A stretch of DNA of 14,416 nucleotides, from assembly GCA_016840855.1 (NCBI GenBank), contig JAEORO010000072.1, forward strand, positions 1 to 14,416, given 5' to 3'. How positions within the stretch are numbered: the first letter of the stretch is position 1; each line of letters opens with the position of its first letter. Shown piece by piece: positions 1-14,327 of this stretch. The DNA comes from Candidatus Thorarchaeota archaeon. Its GTDB lineage: Archaea; Asgardarchaeota; Thorarchaeia; Thorarchaeales; Thorarchaeaceae. A program made the translations under genes and the position numbers. Under the pieces are notes generated by a model that was given only the letters and a program-made list of their open reading frames with translations, ran no database searches and was not told the DNA's origin.

Positions 1-733
1 AATCATGGGAATTGCCTAGTTTTATTCCACTCATATTACTGTGGATGACTTCATTGTGAGTTATATTATTCTTAGAAGAGTCACGTAAACGAATACCATC
101 AAATGCAGACCCACTCACAAAATTGACTGTTATTGAACAGTTACTCGTATAGTCAGCAAGAATACCATATCCGTTCACATTATGAATTGTGTTGTTTGAA
201 AACTCACAATGGTTTGTGCCTAGAGAATACAGACCAACGGAGTTGTCTCCAATGGTTGTCTGAATTGTGTTATTTGTAATTATGACATTATCTGACTCTG
301 TTACCAATACACCGTAACTATCTGATTCCAAAACTGTGTTGTTCCAAACATTTGCATTTACGACTTCCTGTAAAAGAACTCCTGGTGAACCTCCAACTAA
401 AAGACAGCCCCGGATTTCAAAGAACTTAGTAGTATTTTCTATCTGAATTGCAGGGATGCCTGCTGTTGTGATATTCAATCTCTCAATAATGTAGGGATCA
501 ATTGCAGAACCATTACCGTCCCATGAGTTTAGAGATGCCTGGTCTTCAAAATCAGTATCATTTGAGATATGAATTGGAATGTTCTCTGTATACCCTGATT
601 GACCTGAGACAAATGCACGAATTCTTGTTTGGTCTTTCATACCCTTTGAGCTGCTAATGCAATAACTTGTCATCGTCAATGGACACAAAATAATCACAAT
701 AATGCATGCTAGAATCATTGTTTTCCATTTCAT
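1..733 (-). CDS. Secreted right-handed beta-helix (NosD/CASH-type) cell-surface protein, 3'-truncated by the window edge
   Basis: Not in the ORF track; read manually. ATG at 733-731 directly after GGAG, open to position 1. Translation: MKWKTMILACIIVIILCPLTMTS (signal peptide)...PIHISNDTDF...WDGNGSAIDPYIIERLNIT...NANVWNNTV...GVLVTESDNVIITNNTI...GILADYTSNCSITVNFV...GIRLRDSSKNNITHNEV. These are G-I-x-L..S-x-N-x-I-x-x-N beta-helix repeats. Confidence 0.88.
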   Translation of the reverse strand, partial: MKWKTMILACIIVIILCPLTMTSYCISSSKGMKDQTRIRAFVSGQSGYTENIPIHISNDTDFEDQASLNSWDGNGSAIDPYIIERLNITTAGIPAIQIENTTKFFEIRGCLLVGGSPGVLLQEVVNANVWNNTVLESDSYGVLVTESDNVIITNNTIQTTIGDNSVGLYSLGTNHCEFSNNTIHNVNGYGILADYTSNCSITVNFVSGSAFDGIRLRDSSKNNITHNEVIHSNMSGIKLGNSHD

Positions 734-772
734 CTCCAATCTGCTCTCCTTGACTCCCTGCTCTCTTTGTTT

Positions 773-2620
773 TCAGGTTTCGCTAGTGCTTTTCTTTTTG
801 AGAAACATCACTATAATTACAACAATTGCTACGCCTGCAATCCCCACTCCAGCCAATACTAGAACCATAACGTCTCCATCAGGAGGTATGGTCGGTGTTG
901 TCGGTGTGGTTGAAGTCGTTACATGTTGAATTGTAAATAACACCGAAGTTGATTCAGATGATATTCCTTCATCTGATGAAGCAACAACTTTGATGAGATA
1001 GGTATCACCATCATCAAGTTGAGAGATATCCCACTGATAGCTATTCCCAGTTAGTCCAGAGGTTAAATCGTACCAACTATAACCTCCAGTTGATGAATAC
1101 TCTATCGAATAACTCACACTCCAACCCCACGAGTCAATAGATGCACTCCATTCAATCATGATACTTGTGTCAAATGGACCTGAACTATTGGGTGAAGTGA
1201 TTACAAAATCTGACAAAGCATGAGCAATCAAGATGAAATCGCCATCTGATTCATCAGACACAACCAAGCTCTCTGAACATTCAGCAACCACCCGTATCCG
1301 ATAATGTGGTGTTGCCAATTCTGAACTTACGTCCCACTCGTAGTTGGTAGTAGTAAGATTTCCGACTATTTTCTCCCAATCTGCTCCTGAGTTATGTGAG
1401 AAATAGACAGAGTAATTGACTGTATGCCCCTCTGAATCATAACATGGACTCCACTGTATGACAACTGACTCTTTTACTTCTTCACCACCATTCGGATATA
1501 ATACTGTTAGAGGAGTAATGTAGTGGAACACTGGTGGTACTGCGGGGTATGTCAATGGAAATGGATCATCGTTCAATGCAGGTCCTTCTAATTGATATGG
1601 AATATCTACAATCAGGTCAAAATCATCGTCAGGAGTTGTCCAATCACTCCAGTAATTATACAGAACATTTACAGAAACCGCATCATATGCTTGAGAGCTT
1701 CCTCCAACATTGTTATCGATGAACGAATTCCATTTTATGGTATTGTTGCCCGAGGTCGCCTCTATATAGAATGCGTGTTCTGCAGAGTTGCGTATCGTGT
1801 TATTCAGAATTTCATTTAGATGTGCATTGTGAGAGAGATGGATGCCACAGGTATTTGGGTTCAAATCTAGAGGATCAAAGATACGGTTGAAAGCGACTTC
1901 GTTTGAATTTGAATGGTTGGATATCCAAATTGCATTATCATTGCCATACAGTGCATTTCCAATGATACTACTATTATTTGTGTTCTCTAACCAAACTCCT
2001 AGCTCGTCATCATAAACCGTGTTGTTAACTATATCAACATACATCGACCAGTTTGCCCATATGCCATTGTATGTGTTTTGATTAATCTCATTATAGAGGA
2101 CGCTTATATTTGCGGAAGAATTTATCCTGATTCCACTCTCGGATGAATCCTCCACTACATTATTTGTGACATTAATTGATTGACACCCTTTGTCTAGAAA
2201 TATCCCGTGTCGATTATTCACAGCAATATTAGCATGTACAACGCCATTCTTTGCGTTGCGTATATAGATTGCATCCAGCGACCGAGAGATGCTATCAAGA
2301 TAGTTATTTTGAATTATAAAATAAGCCTCTGTGTTTTCAATCACTATCAACTCGAAATTAGCATCAGTAATACTATATCCTTCAATCCGGTATGGGGTAT
2401 TTGCATCTCCTGTCCCAGGAAATCCATAGGAGCTGAAATCACTGTCACTCGAGATGAAGATTGGTCCTCTACTTGTATACGAGGTTTGAAATCCAACACC
2501 TGTTTCTACAGCTTGCATAGAATAGCTTCCATTTTGGAAATACATGTTCACTTCCAAAATTGTGCAATACAATGATGTAGATAATAGAAGAATCAAACTA
2601 AACCACATGTACTTTCTCAA
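773..2620 (-). CDS. Membrane-anchored cell-surface protein: NosD/CASH beta-helix, two Ig/Fn3-like domains, Thr/Pro linker and C-terminal TM anchor
   Basis: 615 aa, TTG start. N-terminal signal peptide; GTGDANTPYRIE motif; repeats GIFLDKGCQSINVTNNVV / GIRINSSANISVLYNEI / GVWLENTNNSSIIGNAL; NosD-type C-cap NYWSDW...DIPY; two repeats of the type 'PNGGE...IQWS...DSEG..V.YSVYFS..SG..W..I...LT...Y.WD.S......Y.I.V.A'; TTSTTPTTPT linker; hydrophobic helix followed by KKK. Confidence 0.9.
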   Translation of the reverse strand: MRKYMWFSLILLLSTSLYCTILEVNMYFQNGSYSMQAVETGVGFQTSYTSRGPIFISSDSDFSSYGFPGTGDANTPYRIEGYSITDANFELIVIENTEAYFIIQNNYLDSISRSLDAIYIRNAKNGVVHANIAVNNRHGIFLDKGCQSINVTNNVVEDSSESGIRINSSANISVLYNEINQNTYNGIWANWSMYVDIVNNTVYDDELGVWLENTNNSSIIGNALYGNDNAIWISNHSNSNEVAFNRIFDPLDLNPNTCGIHLSHNAHLNEILNNTIRNSAEHAFYIEATSGNNTIKWNSFIDNNVGGSSQAYDAVSVNVLYNYWSDWTTPDDDFDLIVDIPYQLEGPALNDDPFPLTYPAVPPVFHYITPLTVLYPNGGEEVKESVVIQWSPCYDSEGHTVNYSVYFSHNSGADWEKIVGNLTTTNYEWDVSSELATPHYRIRVVAECSESLVVSDESDGDFILIAHALSDFVITSPNSSGPFDTSIMIEWSASIDSWGWSVSYSIEYSSTGGYSWYDLTSGLTGNSYQWDISQLDDGDTYLIKVVASSDEGISSESTSVLFTIQHVTTSTTPTTPTIPPDGDVMVLVLAGVGIAGVAIVVIIVMFLKKKSTSET

Positions 2621-3147: not shown

Positions 3148-4443
3148 ATGGGAGGCAGGTCCGGTTTGCAAGGCCAAAACATACAAGCCATCCTAATCAT
3201 GGAACGTGGCGGCATTCCTTTATTCTTCATGAGCCTTGACCCTAGAGCGCAGGACCTTGACCCTATGCTTGTGTCAGGATTCTTCACTGCAATCCAGACT
3301 TTTTCAAAAGAGGTTGTAGACCGGAGTAGTTCGAGATTTCAGGTTGATTATGGTGCTCGTCTTTTCACAGTTCTTGCTGGTAGTCTAACTGATCTTGTTG
3401 CGGTCAGTATGGGTGAATGTGATGAAGAGGTTATACTTACTCTAACTTCACTTCTTGAGGAGTTTGAAACTATTTGGATAAAAGACATGACCCGTGAGGA
3501 GATGGACACACTCGACATTAACACTGAGTTCACTGATTTCAGAGAAGGTATTCTTCAGAATCTCTCATTCAAACAAATTTTGGGAGGTTGGATTCCATTC
3601 TTTGTCGGAACTTCTTCATCCTCCAGTAAAATGCAAGAGAGTATTGTTGTTCCATTCATTGATGGAAGTCGAAATCTAGACGAGATTATCCTTGAGAGTG
3701 GTCTGAATCGTGAAGATGTTACAATGGAAATCACTCGTCTGTGGGCTCTTGGAGCTCTTCAATTTCGTAGTATTTTAGCTGCGAGTGATGTGGCTGTATC
3801 AACATCGAAACTTGATAGACTTCTTCAAACGTCGTCGCCACAGAGAGCAGAACTGGCTAAGACCAATCCAGAAGTCCTTGGAGTTATTCCCCGGATGTCA
3901 ACACTTTTTGATGGGCGACGAACCGTAGGTGCAATCACAAGGTTTCTCACAGAACAATACTCCGAACGTACATTGATGCAAGCCTTTGATTTTCTTCTGG
4001 AGAGCAAAGCAATCGATGTCTTGTCTCCTGAAAAACGGAGAATCCTATTGACCAAAGAAGCGATGGAAATTGCTATCAAAGTAGCAGAAACTGTGTATTC
4101 CGAAATAAAAGCGTTCGAATATCTTGAAACCTCATTGGCCAAGGTTGCTGTTCCTGAAGTGGTTGGAGAGATTCACCTGACTAATGGTAAATGGGAGATA
4201 ACCTATGGATCTCGTCTTCACGAGGGACTTGATCCTCGAAGATTGATGGAACTCTATGCTGACTGGGTAAAATTACTAGCCCAGTTTCTAAGTGCTCTCG
4301 AGAGATCGAAAATTCATACATATGCAGATGCGTTGACTGATGCTTACTCCTCCTATCTTCTAAAACGGTATACTGCTGATGATCTTCGAGGATTCGAAGA
4401 AATCTCCTACTGGTTGGAGATGAATTGTGTGAGGACGTGGTGA
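3148..4443 (+). CDS. Longin-domain protein with two winged-helix domains (NPRL2/NPR2-like architecture) and a helical C-terminal domain
   Basis: aa ~12-140 show the Asgard-type longin pattern (IQAILIMERGGIPLFF...DPMLVSGFFTAIQTFSKEV, three strands, then helix ...LLEEFETIW). aa ~165-207 (PFIDGSRNLDEI...LWALGALQF) and aa ~250-292 (LFDGRRTVGAI...FLLESKAIDV) are two related wHTH units. Confidence 0.85.
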   Translation: MGGRSGLQGQNIQAILIMERGGIPLFFMSLDPRAQDLDPMLVSGFFTAIQTFSKEVVDRSSSRFQVDYGARLFTVLAGSLTDLVAVSMGECDEEVILTLTSLLEEFETIWIKDMTREEMDTLDINTEFTDFREGILQNLSFKQILGGWIPFFVGTSSSSSKMQESIVVPFIDGSRNLDEIILESGLNREDVTMEITRLWALGALQFRSILAASDVAVSTSKLDRLLQTSSPQRAELAKTNPEVLGVIPRMSTLFDGRRTVGAITRFLTEQYSERTLMQAFDFLLESKAIDVLSPEKRRILLTKEAMEIAIKVAETVYSEIKAFEYLETSLAKVAVPEVVGEIHLTNGKWEITYGSRLHEGLDPRRLMELYADWVKLLAQFLSALERSKIHTYADALTDAYSSYLLKRYTADDLRGFEEISYWLEMNCVRTW

Positions 4444-4447
4444 TAAT

Positions 4448-4777
4448 TTGACTGATTCTGAAAGACCAATTCGCCAACTTGCAGAAATACTAAGTAGACG
4501 AGGCCAGACAATTTATGGAAGACAGACGATTGTAGAGTTGTGTGCAAGATCTGGTGTTTCTCTTCTGAATATACACGACGTAGGAGATATTGACTCAGAT
4601 GAATCACTGCAGAATTTTCTTGTTCAATATTCAAAACTTAGCCCTGCAGCTAAATTGACTATTCTGATTTTATCAAAACAACACGGTGTTATATTACCAG
4701 AAGAACTGCTTGGTAAAAAGAAAGGTCTTCGAGACCGCTTGGAGTCGCTTCAGGAATATTTACCGTGGTCCCCATAA
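4448..4777 (+). CDS. Small alpha-helical hypothetical protein, 109 aa, probably co-transcribed with the longin gene
   Basis: TTG start 4 nt after the upstream TGA. Amphipathic helices (LAEILSRRGQTIYGRQTIVELCARSG; LQNFLVQYSKLSPAAKLTILILSKQHGVILPEEL). Confidence 0.8.
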   Translation: MTDSERPIRQLAEILSRRGQTIYGRQTIVELCARSGVSLLNIHDVGDIDSDESLQNFLVQYSKLSPAAKLTILILSKQHGVILPEELLGKKKGLRDRLESLQEYLPWSP

Positions 4778-4841: not shown

Positions 4842-5354
4842 ATGAGTCCTTCATACTTGTACAAAATCGTGACAGTTGGTTCGTCAGCTGTTGGAAAGAC
4901 CTCCATTATCATTCGATATACCACTGGTAAATTTCGGGAGTATTATGCTCCGACTCTTGGTGCAGATTTTTCAATCAAGAGTTTGGATGTTCGAGACAAT
5001 AAAGTCAAGTTACAGATATGGGACTTGGGTTCTCAGGATTTCTTGGGACATGTTCGTGCTGGTTATTATCATGGAGCTCGCGGAGTCATCTATATGTTCG
5101 ATGTGACTCGACCTGAGAGTCTTGAGGAATTATGGGCATGGAAGAAAGAAGTTGACTCTCAGTTGAAAGGTGCAAAGGTCCTGGTTGTTGGGAATAAAAC
5201 AGATCTCGATAAGGAAAGACGAATTTCTAAAGAAGAAGGTGAAGCGTTCGCAAAGAAATTCCTCGCTGATTATATGGAAACCTCTGTAAAACTAAACAAG
5301 GGTGTGGATGATACATTCACTGTCATGGCAAAGACACTCATGGCTAATGTATAA
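4842..5354 (+). CDS. Rab-like small GTPase (Ras superfamily), 170 aa
   Basis: G1 GSSAVGKT, G2/RabF1-like PTLGADF, RabF2 KLQIWD, G3 DLGSQ, RabF4-like YYHGA, G4 NKTD, G5 ETSVK. No C-terminal Cys. Start reassigned from 4686 to ATG 4842, which avoids overlap with the upstream gene and places the start 7 aa before beta1. Confidence 0.96.
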   Translation: MSPSYLYKIVTVGSSAVGKTSIIIRYTTGKFREYYAPTLGADFSIKSLDVRDNKVKLQIWDLGSQDFLGHVRAGYYHGARGVIYMFDVTRPESLEELWAWKKEVDSQLKGAKVLVVGNKTDLDKERRISKEEGEAFAKKFLADYMETSVKLNKGVDDTFTVMAKTLMANV

Positions 5355-5373
5355 TTCTAGAGTGAAAAAGAAA

Positions 5374-6042
5374 ATGAACCGAAAAGTACCTGCATTCATC
5401 TTGATAATCTTGGTTGGTGTTGGTGTTCTGACCTACTTCCTATTTTTCACTGGAACAATCTCTTCTACTGAACCTGAACTGGAATTTCCTATCCTTGAAA
5501 CAGTAAATATTGAACGAATTGCTGCGTATCGGACGCCTGATTGGGGCGAGCCTAGTGTTTTCCATAATGGGATAGACCTGGTTATCTCAGATAATGTCAC
5601 AATACTCTCTCCAGCAAATGGAACAGCTATAGGGGTTTCAGAGAATGTCAATCCATATGCAGGAAATGTGCTATTTGATATAACAATCAGGATTAATTTT
5701 GCTTGGGAAGTTCATCTGATTCTAGAACCAGGCTTTCAGGATGAGTATAATAATTCTCTACAGTCCAATAATATTCTAGTTTCAGTCAATGATGTCCTCA
5801 AAGTTGGTGACATTGTCGCTACTTTGTTCTATAGTGAGAGTTACCCTCATCTACATTATATGCTGATGCACCTTGGTTCAGATGTGTGCGCCTACAACTA
5901 CTCCTCCCAAGCGGCGCGCGACACTTTTGATGAGATTGCTCTTCGTTCCAGTAGTGTGATTTGTTATCCTCTATCTATTCAAAGTGATGGACATGAATCC
6001 ATAATGGCTGTATTTAGAGCAGAGGAGGTCATTTCCTTCTAA
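5374..6042 (+). CDS. Membrane-anchored M23-family (LytM-like) zinc metallopeptidase
   Basis: N-terminal TM/signal anchor (AFILIILVGVGVLTYFLFF), HxxxD motif FHNGIDL, ILSPANGTAIG, VSVNDVLKVGDIVA and HxH motif PHLHY. Start reassigned to ATG 5374 (GTG 5362 is also possible). The 3' end overlaps the convergent gene by 14 nt. Confidence 0.82.
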   Translation: MNRKVPAFILIILVGVGVLTYFLFFTGTISSTEPELEFPILETVNIERIAAYRTPDWGEPSVFHNGIDLVISDNVTILSPANGTAIGVSENVNPYAGNVLFDITIRINFAWEVHLILEPGFQDEYNNSLQSNNILVSVNDVLKVGDIVATLFYSESYPHLHYMLMHLGSDVCAYNYSSQAARDTFDEIALRSSSVICYPLSIQSDGHESIMAVFRAEEVISF

Positions 6043-11763: not shown

Positions 11764-12642
11764 TCAGCTCTTGCGAAATCTCTTCCTATGTTTTCTCACG
11801 CCTTCTGGCCAGTCTTCAATCGGTTGGCTTAGAGTAGTTGTAAATTCGATTTTGTCAATTGGAAAATCTGTCAGTGATTTGCACTCAAAAAGAGGCGTGA
11901 CATCGAGGGATATTAGCTCGTTGTCGTCTAGTTTCAGAAACTCCAGTTTTGTGCAGTTCTTTAAAGGAGAGAGCTCGACCTCTCTGAGACCCATTCCATC
12001 AATGGTTAGTATTTTCAAATCCCTGCACTCTGATAGGGGGCTCAAGTCGATTTCTGAAGTTTTGTTTATCCCAATATTTAAGGCCTCTAGTTTGGTGCAT
12101 GAAGCGAGCGGGGTCAGGTCTATGGATTCAAGGTCATTATCTGTAAGGTCTAAATACTCTAGATTTGGGCAGGATGCTAGAGGGGTGAGATTAATCGTTT
12201 CTAGATGGTTCATATAGAGGATTAACTCTTTCAGTTTTGCGCTCCCCGCTAAGGGTGATAGGTCGATTGTCTTGAGTTCATTTAGACCAAGATTGATTCT
12301 AGTAAGTTTGTGAAGGTTGGGGATATCTTCCAAATGGAACTCGGTAAGACGTTGATGTTCTGCTTCTAAGACGGTTCGACCACGAGTTGCAGTCAGCTCT
12401 TTTTTCTTTGCTGATGTGTTTTGTTTGTCTTTGAAAAGATGGTACTCGTATGCAAGGTATCCAACTAAAAGCATCATTGCTGGTGAACCACCGATGAAGC
12501 TGATTGCAGTTAAAAACAACCTATCCAAAAATGGAGTGCCGAGAAAACCTAGAATGGTCCATGCGAGGAAACTTATGATGGAACCTGAAATTAGTCCAAG
12601 GATTACTATCTGGTCCCTAAATTTCATCGGAACTACTTGCAC
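11764..12642 (-). CDS. Leucine-rich repeat protein with an N-terminal two-helix membrane anchor
   Basis: Two hydrophobic helices (aa ~12-35 and ~42-66), then six 24-aa LRRs with consensus xxLxxLxLxxNxLxxIDLSPLxxC. Start is GTG 12642 or ATG 12627. Confidence 0.92.
   Translation of the reverse strand: MQVVPMKFRDQIVILGLISGSIISFLAWTILGFLGTPFLDRLFLTAISFIGGSPAMMLLVGYLAYEYHLFKDKQNTSAKKKELTATRGRTVLEAEHQRLTEFHLEDIPNLHKLTRINLGLNELKTIDLSPLAGSAKLKELILYMNHLETINLTPLASCPNLEYLDLTDNDLESIDLTPLASCTKLEALNIGINKTSEIDLSPLSECRDLKILTIDGMGLREVELSPLKNCTKLEFLKLDDNELISLDVTPLFECKSLTDFPIDKIEFTTTLSQPIEDWPEGVRKHRKRFRKS
11881..12312 (-). repeat. Six coding 72-nt (24-aa) LRR units
   Basis: HKLTRINLGLNELKTIDLSPLAGS / AKLKELILYMNHLETINLTPLASC / PNLEYLDLTDNDLESIDLTPLASC / TKLEALNIGINKTSEIDLSPLSEC / RDLKILTIDGMGLREVELSPLKNC / TKLEFLKLDDNELISLDVTPLFEC. 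Confidence 0.9.
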
Positions 12643-12809: not shown

Positions 12810-14327
12810 TTGGTAGAGTACAACAAGGTCACTGACGATGTGGTCAAGAAACTCATCGCTGTATGTGGTGAGAAATATGTCACCACTAGTGAACCACTTC
12901 GTCACAGCTATATGGCTCGAGGGATTATGGGGCTTGAGGCAGTCGTTCCAGAGGTCATTGTGAGACCTGCAAGTGCTGAGGAAGTGTCAAAGATTCTCAT
13001 CATTGCAAACGAAAACCTAAGCCCAGTAACTCCCGCAGCCGGAGGCCTCAGTGGAGGTTTCGCGTTACCAGCGATTGAGCCTGGTGGTATCTACATGGAC
13101 ATGACTCGGATGGATAATATGGAGATAGACACGGAGAATAGAGTCATGATTGTAGAGCCGGGTGTCAGGTCTGGCGATGCATGGAGAATTTTCAAGACCA
13201 AGTATCCCGACTGGGCTCCGCCAATTCCTGATGGTGCACCCCCAGCGGCTACTGTCCTTGGGGATGCTATTGAGCGAGGATTCTCGCTCGTGACCGGTGT
13301 ATACGGTCCACAGGCAGACATGATCATGGGTATGGAGATAGTTCTCCCGACCGGTGAGATCTTTCATACTGGTTCTTGGGCACTACCTGGTGCAAAGCCT
13401 TTCTATCGCTGGGGAGTTGGTCCAAATCCTGATGGGCTGTTTCTGGGGTCACAGGGCTCTATGGGTATCATAACAAAATGCGCTATCAAGATGGTGCCAC
13501 ATCCGCACTACAAGACAGTAGTTGCGTATGGTGGAGAAACTTGGGATGACATCGTCAAGCCAGCTTGGGAGATCTCCAAACATGAGATGGGTATTGGTGA
13601 ACGCACTGTTATGGTACAAGGAGGTAACTACGAACTTGTCATGACACGCTGGCCCAAAGAGAATGTCCCAATCGACTATGATTTCTACAAGAAAATCGGT
13701 GTGGACAAGAAGTGGATGAACTACGAATGCTGGGCATGGTCTCAGGAGGAGCTTGACGAAACACTGAATGGCATTGACAAGATCTACAAGGACTACGAGG
13801 TCAGGGAGAAGCGTACCACTCCAAAACAAGAGTTACATCCAAAGCAGGTCGCATCCCGCCTTAAAAAACCCAACAAGATTGCCATCCCTTACTCACTCTG
13901 GCAAGCCGGATTCTTGTTCATAACTTGGTACTGTCCTTGGCTTGAGAGCAGCAGGATGATGGAAGAGTACTGTGCAGCGATGGCTGACTATGGCTTCCCT
14001 GAAACTATGTGGGTAGCATCCATCGATCACGCAAGGCAAGCCATCGTTATGCCAATTCTCTGCTTTGACTGGACAGAGCCTGGCATCATGGAAAAGATTC
14101 GGGAGTTTAATCTTGAAACTACCAAGAGTTTCCTGAAGAAAGGTTGGCTCAATTATAGGCCTGATCCATTTGTCCATGCTCCTCAGACCTTCAGTCAAGC
14201 AAAAGAATACTACAAGATGCTGGTCAAATTCCGAAAGGTTTTGGACCCGAACTTGATATTACATCCAGGTCGTCTCGCAATCCCATGGGAGAGCGTTACG
14301 GACCTACCCAACCCCGTAAAGTCCTGA
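12810..14327 (+). CDS. FAD-binding oxidoreductase, VAO/PCMH (FAD_binding_4, GlcD-like) superfamily
   Basis: Motifs PEVIVRPASAEEVSKILIIAN, GGIYMDMTRMD, IVEPGV, ATVLGDAIERG, GMEIVLPTGEIFHTGS, GPNPDGLFLGSQGSMGIITK and C-terminal LDPNLILHPGRL. Confidence 0.95.
   Translation: MVEYNKVTDDVVKKLIAVCGEKYVTTSEPLRHSYMARGIMGLEAVVPEVIVRPASAEEVSKILIIANENLSPVTPAAGGLSGGFALPAIEPGGIYMDMTRMDNMEIDTENRVMIVEPGVRSGDAWRIFKTKYPDWAPPIPDGAPPAATVLGDAIERGFSLVTGVYGPQADMIMGMEIVLPTGEIFHTGSWALPGAKPFYRWGVGPNPDGLFLGSQGSMGIITKCAIKMVPHPHYKTVVAYGGETWDDIVKPAWEISKHEMGIGERTVMVQGGNYELVMTRWPKENVPIDYDFYKKIGVDKKWMNYECWAWSQEELDETLNGIDKIYKDYEVREKRTTPKQELHPKQVASRLKKPNKIAIPYSLWQAGFLFITWYCPWLESSRMMEEYCAAMADYGFPETMWVASIDHARQAIVMPILCFDWTEPGIMEKIREFNLETTKSFLKKGWLNYRPDPFVHAPQTFSQAKEYYKMLVKFRKVLDPNLILHPGRLAIPWESVTDLPNPVKS

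What the first reader, a model, noticed from the sequence alone, without database searches (positions are those of the whole stretch)
3589..4023. Winged-helix region aligns without gaps to human NPRL2 (recalled sequence)
aa 168-226 VPFIDGSRNLDEIILESGLNREDVTMEITRLWALGALQFRSILAASDVAVSTSKLDRLL aligns to my recollection of human NPRL2 [59 protein letters not shown]. By hand count there are 19/59 identities and no gaps. The match extends past the generic wHTH into SIL..S.V...T.K...L. The upstream WIPFF parallels NPRL2 DVPVF, and a second wHTH follows, as in NPRL2. With the N-terminal longin, the domain order matches NPRL2/NPRL3. Caveat: the comparison is from memory, and IDGxR wHTH units are common in prokaryotes.
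Basis: partly seen in the sequence, partly recalled or inferred. Interest (0 to 1): 0.8.

Follow-up and report, generated by a model that had tools for sequence, protein, structure and literature searches.

The report
Archaeal NPRL2-like protein with own GTPase
This Thorarchaeota (Asgard archaeon) gene really is a distant relative of NPRL2, a eukaryotic nutrient-signalling protein; the family is already in print, but here it sits in a conserved three-gene set with its own Rab-like GTPase, a pair that can be tested at the bench.

Summary
Family profiles raise this to E 4.7e-7 and then 5.3e-10. The better alignment runs from the end of the longin domain through both winged helices. A confident model (pLDDT 90.6) gives only GATOR1/SEAC NPRL2/NPRL3-sized chains as Foldseek ranks 1-13, with near full-length alignments.

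It is not new. Liu et al. (bioRxiv 10.1101/2020.10.19.343400) already describe a longin + NPRL2-specific-domain family in most Thor MAGs.

Beyond the finding:
- The gene forms a conserved trio with a 109-aa "tail" ORF and a Rab-like GTPase.
- The tail is fused to the protein in the paralogue.
- The trio was duplicated as a unit.

My four literature searches found no paper describing this trio. This scan's earlier notes report it on other genomes.

The most likely role is regulator of that GTPase, with GAP favoured. Catalytic-residue equivalence was not testable here, and Pfam NPR2/NPR3 thresholds are not met.

The parts
3148..4443 (+). NPRL2/NPRL3-like gene, 431 aa plus stop. The start at ATG 3148 keeps longin strand beta1.
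   Evidence: ORF and translation. Homologues begin upstream of the IQAILIME strand. The model has pLDDT 90.6.
3169..3570 (+). Longin domain, residues 8-141 (b1 12-19, b2 24-29, a1 39-56, b3-b5 63-87, a2 93-110, a3 129-138). Carries a G22-x-P24 loop and R71.
   Evidence: Secondary structure. VIA-align Z 12.2 (TRAPP subunit 2j3t_D), 11.5 (Sec22b) and 10.9 (MglB) over residues 8-141. G22 in 46 of 50, P24 in 48 of 50, R71 in 29 of 50 family members.
3571..3612 (+). Linker, residues 142-155, with the conserved W148-x-P150 (WIPFF).
   Evidence: W148 in 44 of 50 and P150 in 47 of 50 members. Aligned to NPRL2 'VPVF'.
3613..3804 (+). First winged helix, residues 156-219.
   Evidence: alignments; H177-184, H188-200, E204-207, E215-218. 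Sub-threshold Pfam HTH_NPRL3 match at E 0.064.
3805..4023 (+). Second winged helix, residues 220-292.
   Evidence: The alignment extends to NPRL2 residue 329. Model elements H231-285 and E255-259, E289-291.
4024..4440 (+). Family-specific C-terminal helical domain, residues 293-431. No sequence counterpart was found in NPRL2.
   Evidence: helices 294-428, pLDDT above 90. No PDB hit with E below 1 in this range. W373 in 48 of 50 and E424 in 46 of 50 members.
4448..4777 (+). 109-aa ORF with a TTG start. It is the detachable tail of the NPRL2-like protein, because it is fused to the C-terminus in the paralogue clade.
   Evidence: 37% identity to residues 445-527 of the 528-aa paralogue. Present next to or fused with the gene in 42 of 43 loci, fused in 14. 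No Pfam or PDB relative.
4842..5354 (+). Dedicated Rab-like small GTPase, 170 aa plus stop, starting at MSPSYLYK. Switch II reads DLGSQ instead of DxxGQ, and there is no C-terminal Cys.
   Evidence: Pfam Ras E 7.1e-45. Best PDB hits are Rab8A at 5e-34 and Thorarchaeota Rab 7ezb at 2e-31. Motifs in alignment A4. Found downstream on the same strand in 36 of 43 loci.

Best explanation
ORF 3148-4443 encodes a Thorarchaeota member of the already described Asgard 'NPRL2-like' family. It is a true but distant homologue of the NPRL2/NPRL3 subunits of eukaryotic GATOR1. Its parts, in order, are an N-terminal longin domain, a W-x-P linker, two winged helices homologous in sequence to those of NPRL2, and a family-specific helical C-terminal domain. 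It works as one unit with two co-transcribed partners. The first is a 109-aa tail protein, which is fused to it in the paralogue. The second is a private Rab-like GTPase. Shown here: the homology, the domain order, the conserved trio, and the duplication of the trio as a unit. Inferred: the protein, probably as a dimer through its longin and winged-helix lobes as in NPRL2-NPRL3, binds the co-encoded GTPase on its acidic longin platform and sets its nucleotide state. I favour GTPase activation (about 0.4). Nucleotide exchange or GTP-state-dependent scaffolding is the main alternative (about 0.3). The winged helices would serve protein-protein contacts, not DNA binding.
For: Homology: NPRL2 is the top PDB hit for the single sequence (E 0.017), for the 20-sequence profile (4.7e-7) and for the 50-sequence profile (5.3e-10, profile 87-286 vs NPRL2 123-329). 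Yeast Npr2 is next at 0.011. Foldseek ranks 1-13 of 350,542 chains are all GATOR1/SEAC chains (E 2.9e-7 to 1.2e-4, 337-503 columns). The longin fold is confirmed. [quoted passage not shown] This fits the source names of the homologues. Functional link to the GTPase: across 43 loci, the tail is adjacent or fused in 42. The GTPase lies downstream on the same strand in 36, and within 300 nt in 31. Flanking genes are conserved only in close relatives. The same genome carries a second cassette with a fused tail and a 59%-identical GTPase. The NPRL-like tree and the GTPase tree split into the same two clades, and 5 genomes hold both clades (record titles; own genome). Toward a GAP role: G22-x-P24 sits in the loop before beta2 (46 and 48 of 50), where the GAP-type longins carry their GP motif (section 2.4 of PMC12290439). 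R71 is invariant in 15 of 15 Thor sequences of both clades. The longin has net charge -14 and the GTPase has pI 9.1. Tran et al. infer that Thor Rabs need GAPs or GEFs (passages of PMC10933270).
Against: Pfam NPR2, NPR3 and HTH_NPRL3 models do not reach threshold. NPR2 matched 1 of 20 members at E 0.23, and HTH_NPRL3 matched 9 of 20 with a best E of 0.0012. NPR2 and NPR3 found nothing in the genome at E up to 10. The longin is not detectably NPRL2-like by sequence. By rigid-body alignment it resembles TRAPP, SNARE and MglB longins, and no GATOR1 chain is among the 50 rows shown. Global TM-scores to NPRL chains are low, 0.22-0.28, so the domain arrangement differs or is flexible. R71 is present in only 29 of 50 members of the wider family, with Q in 9. 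Its equivalence to NPRL2 Arg78 was not tested. The motif is G-x-P, not GP. The partner is Rab-like, not a Rag GTPase. No DEPDC5/Iml1 match was found in a genome that is 92% complete. Four loci with at least 1.6 kb of downstream sequence have no GTPase. TRAPP-type longins, the best rigid-body matches, are GEF subunits.
Confidence: 0.8

Rival explanations
1. The homology is as stated above, but the protein is a guanine-nucleotide exchange factor or a GTP-state-specific scaffold or effector for the neighbouring Rab-like GTPase, not a GAP. This is the more common job of longin domains (TRAPP, Mon1-Ccz1, DENN).
For: The best rigid-body matches of the longin are TRAPP subunits (Z 12.2, 12.1, 11.7). 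The candidate arginine R71 is not conserved across the wider family, 29 of 50. The GTPase has an altered switch II, DLGSQ, with Ser where Ras has Gly60. This may change its intrinsic cycle.
Against: The closest full-length relatives are the GAP subunits NPRL2/NPRL3. MglB, a roadblock GAP, matches nearly as well, Z 10.9. The G-x-P loop lies where GAP-type longins have their GP motif.
Confidence: 0.3
2. The protein is a GTPase-controlled transcription regulator. The longin would sense the GTPase and the two winged helices would bind DNA, as archaeal TrmB/MarR-type wHTH proteins do. The NPRL2 likeness would then reflect shared ancestry of the fold only.
For: MarR is the best non-NPRL hit (E 0.046). 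Some distant family members carry sub-threshold TrmB or HTH_47 matches (P0191, P0166, P0185). One neighbouring ESM Atlas cluster has TrmB on 52% of its members.
Against: The winged helices are acidic or neutral. wH1 has net charge -4, with a family median of -3 and a positive charge in only 4 of 50. wH2 has +1, with a median of -1. The NPRL2 match is about eight orders of magnitude better than MarR. In GATOR1 these domains make protein contacts (established knowledge, recalled).
Confidence: 0.07
3. The likeness to NPRL2 is a chance or convergent match of a common prokaryotic IDGxR winged helix (PqqD-like) that happens to follow a generic longin.
For: 4 of 20 members give sub-threshold PqqD matches, with a best E of 0.0012. 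That equals the best HTH_NPRL3 value. The longin alone shows no specific NPRL2 signal.
Against: No PqqD-type chain appears among the 48 PDB sequences with E up to 10, while NPRL2 scores 5.3e-10 over 200 profile positions spanning two domains. Foldseek puts 13 GATOR1/SEAC chains ahead of everything else with two independent models.
Confidence: 0.04

Closest known systems
Asgard 'NPRL2-like' protein family of Liu et al. (bioRxiv 10.1101/2020.10.19.343400; published in Nature 2021, the latter recalled)
   Same: Longin domain plus an NPRL2-specific C-terminal domain. [quoted passage not shown] The window's protein and its homologues carry Thorarchaeota, Lokiarchaeota or Promethearchaeota source names.
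   Different: The passages I read describe no gene neighbourhood for this family. Figure 5c and the supplementary tables could not be seen.
Human NPRL2 / yeast Npr2 and NPRL3/Npr3, the longin subunits of GATOR1/SEACIT, the GAP for RagA/Gtr1 (PDB 6CES, 7T3A-C, 8FW5, 8ADL, 9O5A, 9O5D, 9V0J, 9H4Q)
   Same: The domain order is longin, then linker, then two winged helices. Sequence homology from the last longin helix through both winged helices is E 5.3e-10. These are the top structural matches. The protein is associated with a small GTPase.
   Different: Pfam thresholds are not met. There is an extra roughly 140-aa helical domain plus a detachable tail. The partner GTPase is Rab-like, not Rag. No DEPDC5/Iml1 was detected. 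Arg78 equivalence is unproven. The two archaeal paralogues each have their own GTPase.
FLCN/SMCR8-type GAP longins and their Asgard look-alikes (Traffic 2025, PMC12290439)
   Same: A conserved Gly/Pro loop lies just before beta2 of the longin, and there is a conserved arginine in the longin domain within Thor.
   Different: Those proteins pair a longin with a DENN domain, not with winged helices. Here the motif is G-x-P, and the arginine is not family-wide.
MglB-MglA (bacterial roadblock GAP with a Ras-like GTPase)
   Same: A roadblock/longin-fold regulator is encoded beside its own small GTPase. Structural match Z 10.9.
   Different: MglB is a single roadblock domain without winged helices, and its helix topology differs from a longin's.

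Membership tests
NPRL2/NPRL3 (GATOR1/SEACIT longin subunits) | N-terminal longin domain | tested here: met
   Model strands and helices in longin order. Z 12.2-9.7 to longin/roadblock domains over residues 8-141.
NPRL2/NPRL3 (GATOR1/SEACIT longin subunits) | C-lobe of tandem winged helices after the longin, homologous in sequence | tested here: met
   Profile A2 vs human NPRL2: E 5.3e-10, profile 87-286 vs chain 123-329. Yeast Npr2 E 0.011. Foldseek ranks 1-13.
NPRL2/NPRL3 (GATOR1/SEACIT longin subunits) | Reaches the curated thresholds of Pfam NPR2 (PF06218) or NPR3 (PF03666) | tested here: not met
   No match for the protein at E up to 1. NPR2 matched 1 of 20 members at E 0.23. There was no genome match at E up to 10.
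NPRL2/NPRL3 (GATOR1/SEACIT longin subunits) | Catalytic arginine finger (NPRL2 Arg78 / Npr2 Arg84) with the neighbouring Asn | tested here: inconclusive
   The longin is not alignable to NPRL2 by sequence, and no residue-level structural alignment was available. The candidate R71 is present in 15 of 15 Thor sequences but in only 29 of 50 of the wider family.
NPRL2/NPRL3 (GATOR1/SEACIT longin subunits) | GP motif before beta2 of the longin (present in NPRL2, absent in NPRL3, per PMC12290439) | tested here: inconclusive
   G22 in 46 of 50 and P24 in 48 of 50, at the end of the beta1-beta2 loop. They are separated by one residue, so the motif is G-x-P.
NPRL2/NPRL3 (GATOR1/SEACIT longin subunits) | Heterodimer of two paralogues bound to DEPDC5/Iml1 | tested here: inconclusive
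   Two paralogues exist in this genome. IML1 (PF12257) gave no match in a genome that is 92% complete. Binding could not be tested.
NPRL2/NPRL3 (GATOR1/SEACIT longin subunits) | Acts on a Rag-family GTPase | tested here: not met
   The co-encoded GTPase is Ras/Rab-type: Pfam Ras 7.1e-45 vs Gtr1_RagA 3.3e-4, which is below cut-off. Its best PDB hits are Rab8A and other Rabs. Activity itself was not tested.
Asgard NPRL2-like family (Liu et al.) | Longin plus NPRL2-specific C-terminal domain, in Thor and some Loki genomes | tested here: met
   for the architecture. Source names. The definition comes from passages read. asCOG profiles were not available for a formal assignment.
PqqD / RRE-type winged helix | Reaches the Pfam PqqD (PF05402) threshold | tested here: not met
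   4 of 20 members matched below threshold, with a best E of 0.0012. The window's protein gave no match.

The most novel reading that the evidence does not exclude
The trio is a pre-eukaryotic, minimal GATOR1-type switch. On this reading, an NPRL2/NPRL3-like longin/winged-helix protein, completed by its detachable tail, is the dedicated GAP of a Rab-like GTPase with a non-canonical DLGSQ switch II. The two paralogous cassettes found in single Thorarchaeota genomes supply the two halves of an NPRL2-NPRL3-like heterodimer. Heterodimeric longin GAPs, and their pairing with a private GTPase, would then predate eukaryotes and predate the specialisation on Rag GTPases.
Probability: 0.2. Interest if true: 0.7.

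Novelty: already known. Interest (0 to 1): 0.35.

Why it matters
NPRL2/NPRL3 form the catalytic core of GATOR1, the brake on mTORC1. Their presence in Asgard archaea bears on how eukaryotic nutrient signalling and longin-type GTPase regulators arose. That presence is already published, so the finding as written adds a confirmed instance, not a discovery.

The practical value lies in the context. Tran et al. (PMC10933270, passages) state that Asgard GTPase genes are generally not in operons with longin or roadblock genes. As a result, regulators cannot be matched to GTPases from genome layout. Here a GAP-family relative, its tail and one specific Rab-like GTPase are kept together and were duplicated together. 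That gives a ready-matched set for binding, GAP/GEF and structural experiments.

Tried and rejected
- A longin-only profile of 15 sequences against the PDB found only a chance MxiA match at E 0.7. No sequence link between the longin and NPRL2 could be shown.
- VIA-align on the whole model was filled by single longin/roadblock domains over residues 8-141. No GATOR1 chain was among the 50 rows shown. This leaves the winged-helix part untested by that aligner.
- A profile search of 1.84 billion representatives found 151 proteins at E up to 0.001. I scanned 42 of the 150 listed with Pfam, choosing the distant and long ones. None of the 42 matched NPR2 or NPR3, so no eukaryotic NPRL2 was retrieved that way. 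This is as expected: 42 bits is near the threshold for a library of that size.
- ESM Atlas gave only archaeal hypothetical clusters.
- The tail ORF has no Pfam or PDB relative.
- The Gtr1_RagA Pfam model gave only weak matches to generic small GTPases in the genome. Its control also rings in E. coli and M. jannaschii, so it says nothing about Rag GTPases.
- I could not locate NPRL2 Arg78 within the longin secondary structure from the papers held. Shen et al. 2019 (PMC6393612) is not held.

Full report
**What is there.** The window (GC about 0.40) carries, on the + strand, a 431-aa ORF at 3148-4443. Four bases later comes a 109-aa TTG-start ORF (4448-4777). After a 64-nt spacer comes a 170-aa small GTPase (4842-5354). 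Its real start is MSPSYLYK, not the overlapping GTG at 4686, because that N-terminus is conserved in 20 aligned orthologues. The finding's coordinates 3589-4023 are residues 148-292 of the first ORF. The homologues' source names place the organism in Thorarchaeota.

**Checking the observation.** phmmer of the ORF against all PDB sequences ranks human NPRL2 first (E 0.017; query 85-237 vs chain 118-266).
- A profile of 20 homologues (A1) raises NPRL2 to E 4.7e-7 and brings in yeast Npr2 at 0.039.
- A profile of 50 homologues down to 14-25% identity (A2) gives E 5.3e-10 and 41.8 bits. It spans profile 87-286 vs NPRL2 123-329: the last longin helix, the W-x-P linker (aligned to NPRL2 VPVF) and both winged helices.
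- In that search Npr2 scores 0.011 and the next unrelated protein, a MarR, scores 0.046.
- No PqqD-like chain is among the 48 sequences listed at E up to 10.

**Structure.**
It reached pLDDT 75.
- The second used the full ORF and A2 and reached pLDDT 90.6 and pTM 0.87. It shows a canonical longin (residues 12-138), two winged helices (about 156-218 and 231-291) and a helical C-terminal domain (294-428).
- Foldseek against 350,542 PDB chains gave the same picture with both models. Ranks 1-13 are chains of GATOR1/SEAC entries only: E 2.9e-7 to 1.2e-4 and 337-503 alignment columns with the good model, and E 2.4e-5 to 2.3e-3 with the first.
- 8adl_S is Npr2 and 8fw5_B is NPRL2. I take the other chains to be NPRL2 or NPRL3 from their lengths (362-461 residues), because the tool gives only entry titles.
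- Single-domain longin/roadblock proteins begin at rank 14 (E 7e-4).
- Global TM-scores are low (0.22-0.28), so the relative placement of domains differs.
- Rigid-body VIA-align sees only the longin (residues 8-141). It ranks TRAPP subunits, Sec22b, an Asgard roadblock protein and MglB at Z 12.2-9.7, and shows no GATOR1 chain in its 50 rows.
- A longin-only profile finds nothing in the PDB.
- The NPRL2-specific signal therefore lies in the linker and the tandem winged helices, together with the overall domain order. It does not lie in the longin.

**Results against family membership.** Pfam gives only a sub-threshold HTH_NPRL3 match (E 0.064). Among 20 members, 9 match HTH_NPRL3 and 4 match PqqD (both with a best E of 0.0012), and 1 matches NPR2 at 0.23. 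The NPR2, NPR3 and IML1 models find nothing in the whole genome at E up to 10 (92% complete). The protein is a remote homologue, not a member of the Pfam NPR2 family.

**Already known.**
- Liu et al. [quoted passage not shown] - 'NPRL2-like longin domain' is a standard category in the asCOG-based annotation of eukaryotic signature proteins (PMC9834061, one passage).
- The Traffic 2025 paper (PMC12290439; passages and section 2.4) discusses GP-motif/arginine-finger longins in Asgard archaea.

**Context found here.**
- *Second cassette.* The genome holds a second cassette on another contig: a 528-aa paralogue (41% identity) whose C-terminal 83 residues are 37% identical to the window's 109-aa ORF. 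It is followed by a GTPase that is 59% identical to the window's. The small ORF is thus a detachable tail of the NPRL2-like protein.
- *Synteny.* I examined 43 loci: L002 plus L005-L046 of the one-genome-per-species collection. Before counting I left out the window itself (L001), two weak longin-only hits (L003, L004) and four partial or weak loci (L047-L050). The tail is adjacent or fused in 42; the one miss ends at a contig edge. It is fused in 14. A GTPase homologue lies downstream on the same strand in 36, and within 300 nt in 31. Of the 7 loci without a GTPase, 3 have 1,250 nt or less of downstream sequence and 4 have at least 1.6 kb.
- *Flanks.* Flanking genes are conserved only among close relatives.
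- *Trees.* Maximum-likelihood trees of the NPRL-like proteins (40 rows, split supported 100/100) and of the GTPases (35 rows; quick tree only, SH-aLRT 100) split into the same two sets of loci. Five genomes carry both types (titles). The trio was duplicated as a unit and each regulator kept its own GTPase.
- *In print?* My four literature searches found no paper describing this neighbourhood. Figure 5c and the supplements of Liu et al. could not be seen. Earlier notes of this scan report the same trio in other Thorarchaeota genomes. They are unchecked AI notes that agree with what I derived here.

**Mechanism.** Shown: the homology to the GAP subunits, and the tight, co-diverging linkage to a Rab-like GTPase. 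The rest is inferred.
- For a GAP role:
  - The G22-x-P24 loop (46 and 48 of 50) lies just before beta2, where NPRL2, FLCN, SMCR8 and C9orf72 carry a GP motif next to the arginine finger.
  - R71 is invariant in 15 Thor sequences of both clades.
  - The longin is strongly acidic (net -14) and the GTPase is basic (pI 9.1).
- Against a GAP role:
  - R71 is present in only 29 of 50 members of the wider family, and I could not establish whether it corresponds to Arg78.
  - The best rigid-body longin matches are GEF subunits.
- The GTPase itself is unusual. Its switch II is D61-L-G-S-Q65, with Ser at the position of Ras Gly60. The Gly63 and Gln65 columns are invariant in 20 of 20 orthologues, and the Ser64 column is at least 90% conserved.
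- The winged helices are acidic to neutral (wH1 is positive in only 4 of 50 members). This argues against a DNA-binding role.
- I put a dedicated regulator of the neighbouring GTPase at about 0.75. Within that, GAP is about 0.4 and GEF or scaffold about 0.3.

**Verdict.** The family is already known. Interest is moderate, because of the matched regulator-tail-GTPase set.

Noticed in passing
window 5022-5036 (GTPase residues 61-65): Switch II of the Rab-like GTPase reads DLGSQ instead of the canonical DxxGQ. Gly is shifted one position and Ser occupies the place of Ras Gly60. G63 and Q65 are invariant, and S64 is at least 90% conserved, in 20 orthologues of both paralogue clades. The protein also lacks C-terminal prenylation cysteines.
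   Followed up: partly
window 3148-3198 vs 3199: The public gene call for this protein (P0002, 414 aa) starts at M18 and cuts off longin strand beta1 (residues 12-19). Homologues keep the IQAILIME strand. The full 431-aa ORF folded far better (pLDDT 90.6 vs 75.1), although a deeper alignment was also used.
   Followed up: partly
L002 (own genome, contig C183) 1455-3632: A second, paralogous cassette lies in the same genome: a 528-aa NPRL2-like protein with a fused tail, followed after 75 nt by a 171-aa Rab-like GTPase.
   Followed up: yes
L047 3965-4596: In one MAG only residues 7-56 of the NPRL2-like protein remain. They abut a GTPase match that starts at residue 5, and the two matches overlap by 7 nt.
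   Followed up: no
L011, L014, L017, L018 (about 1.4 kb) and L020 (about 3.5 kb): In five loci, extra DNA lies between the tail ORF and the GTPase, so the trio is interrupted there. The content of the insert was not examined.
   Followed up: no
window 5302-6042 (+): A 246-aa ORF with a sub-threshold M23 peptidase match and an N-terminal hydrophobic stretch overlaps the 3' end of the GTPase gene by 53 nt. It is conserved in only 1 of the related loci.
   Followed up: partly
window 2-739 and 773-2620 (-): Two adjacent beta-helix (NosD-like) surface proteins. The complete one has fibronectin-III domains and a C-terminal membrane anchor.
   Followed up: no
window 13001-14000: GC rises to 0.50 inside the FAD-binding oxidase gene (12810-14327), against 0.38-0.43 elsewhere in the window.
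   Followed up: no
window 11764-12642 (-): A leucine-rich-repeat protein with N-terminal transmembrane segments (Pfam LRR_8, E 2.5e-13). This is another eukaryote-like repeat family near the locus.
   Followed up: no
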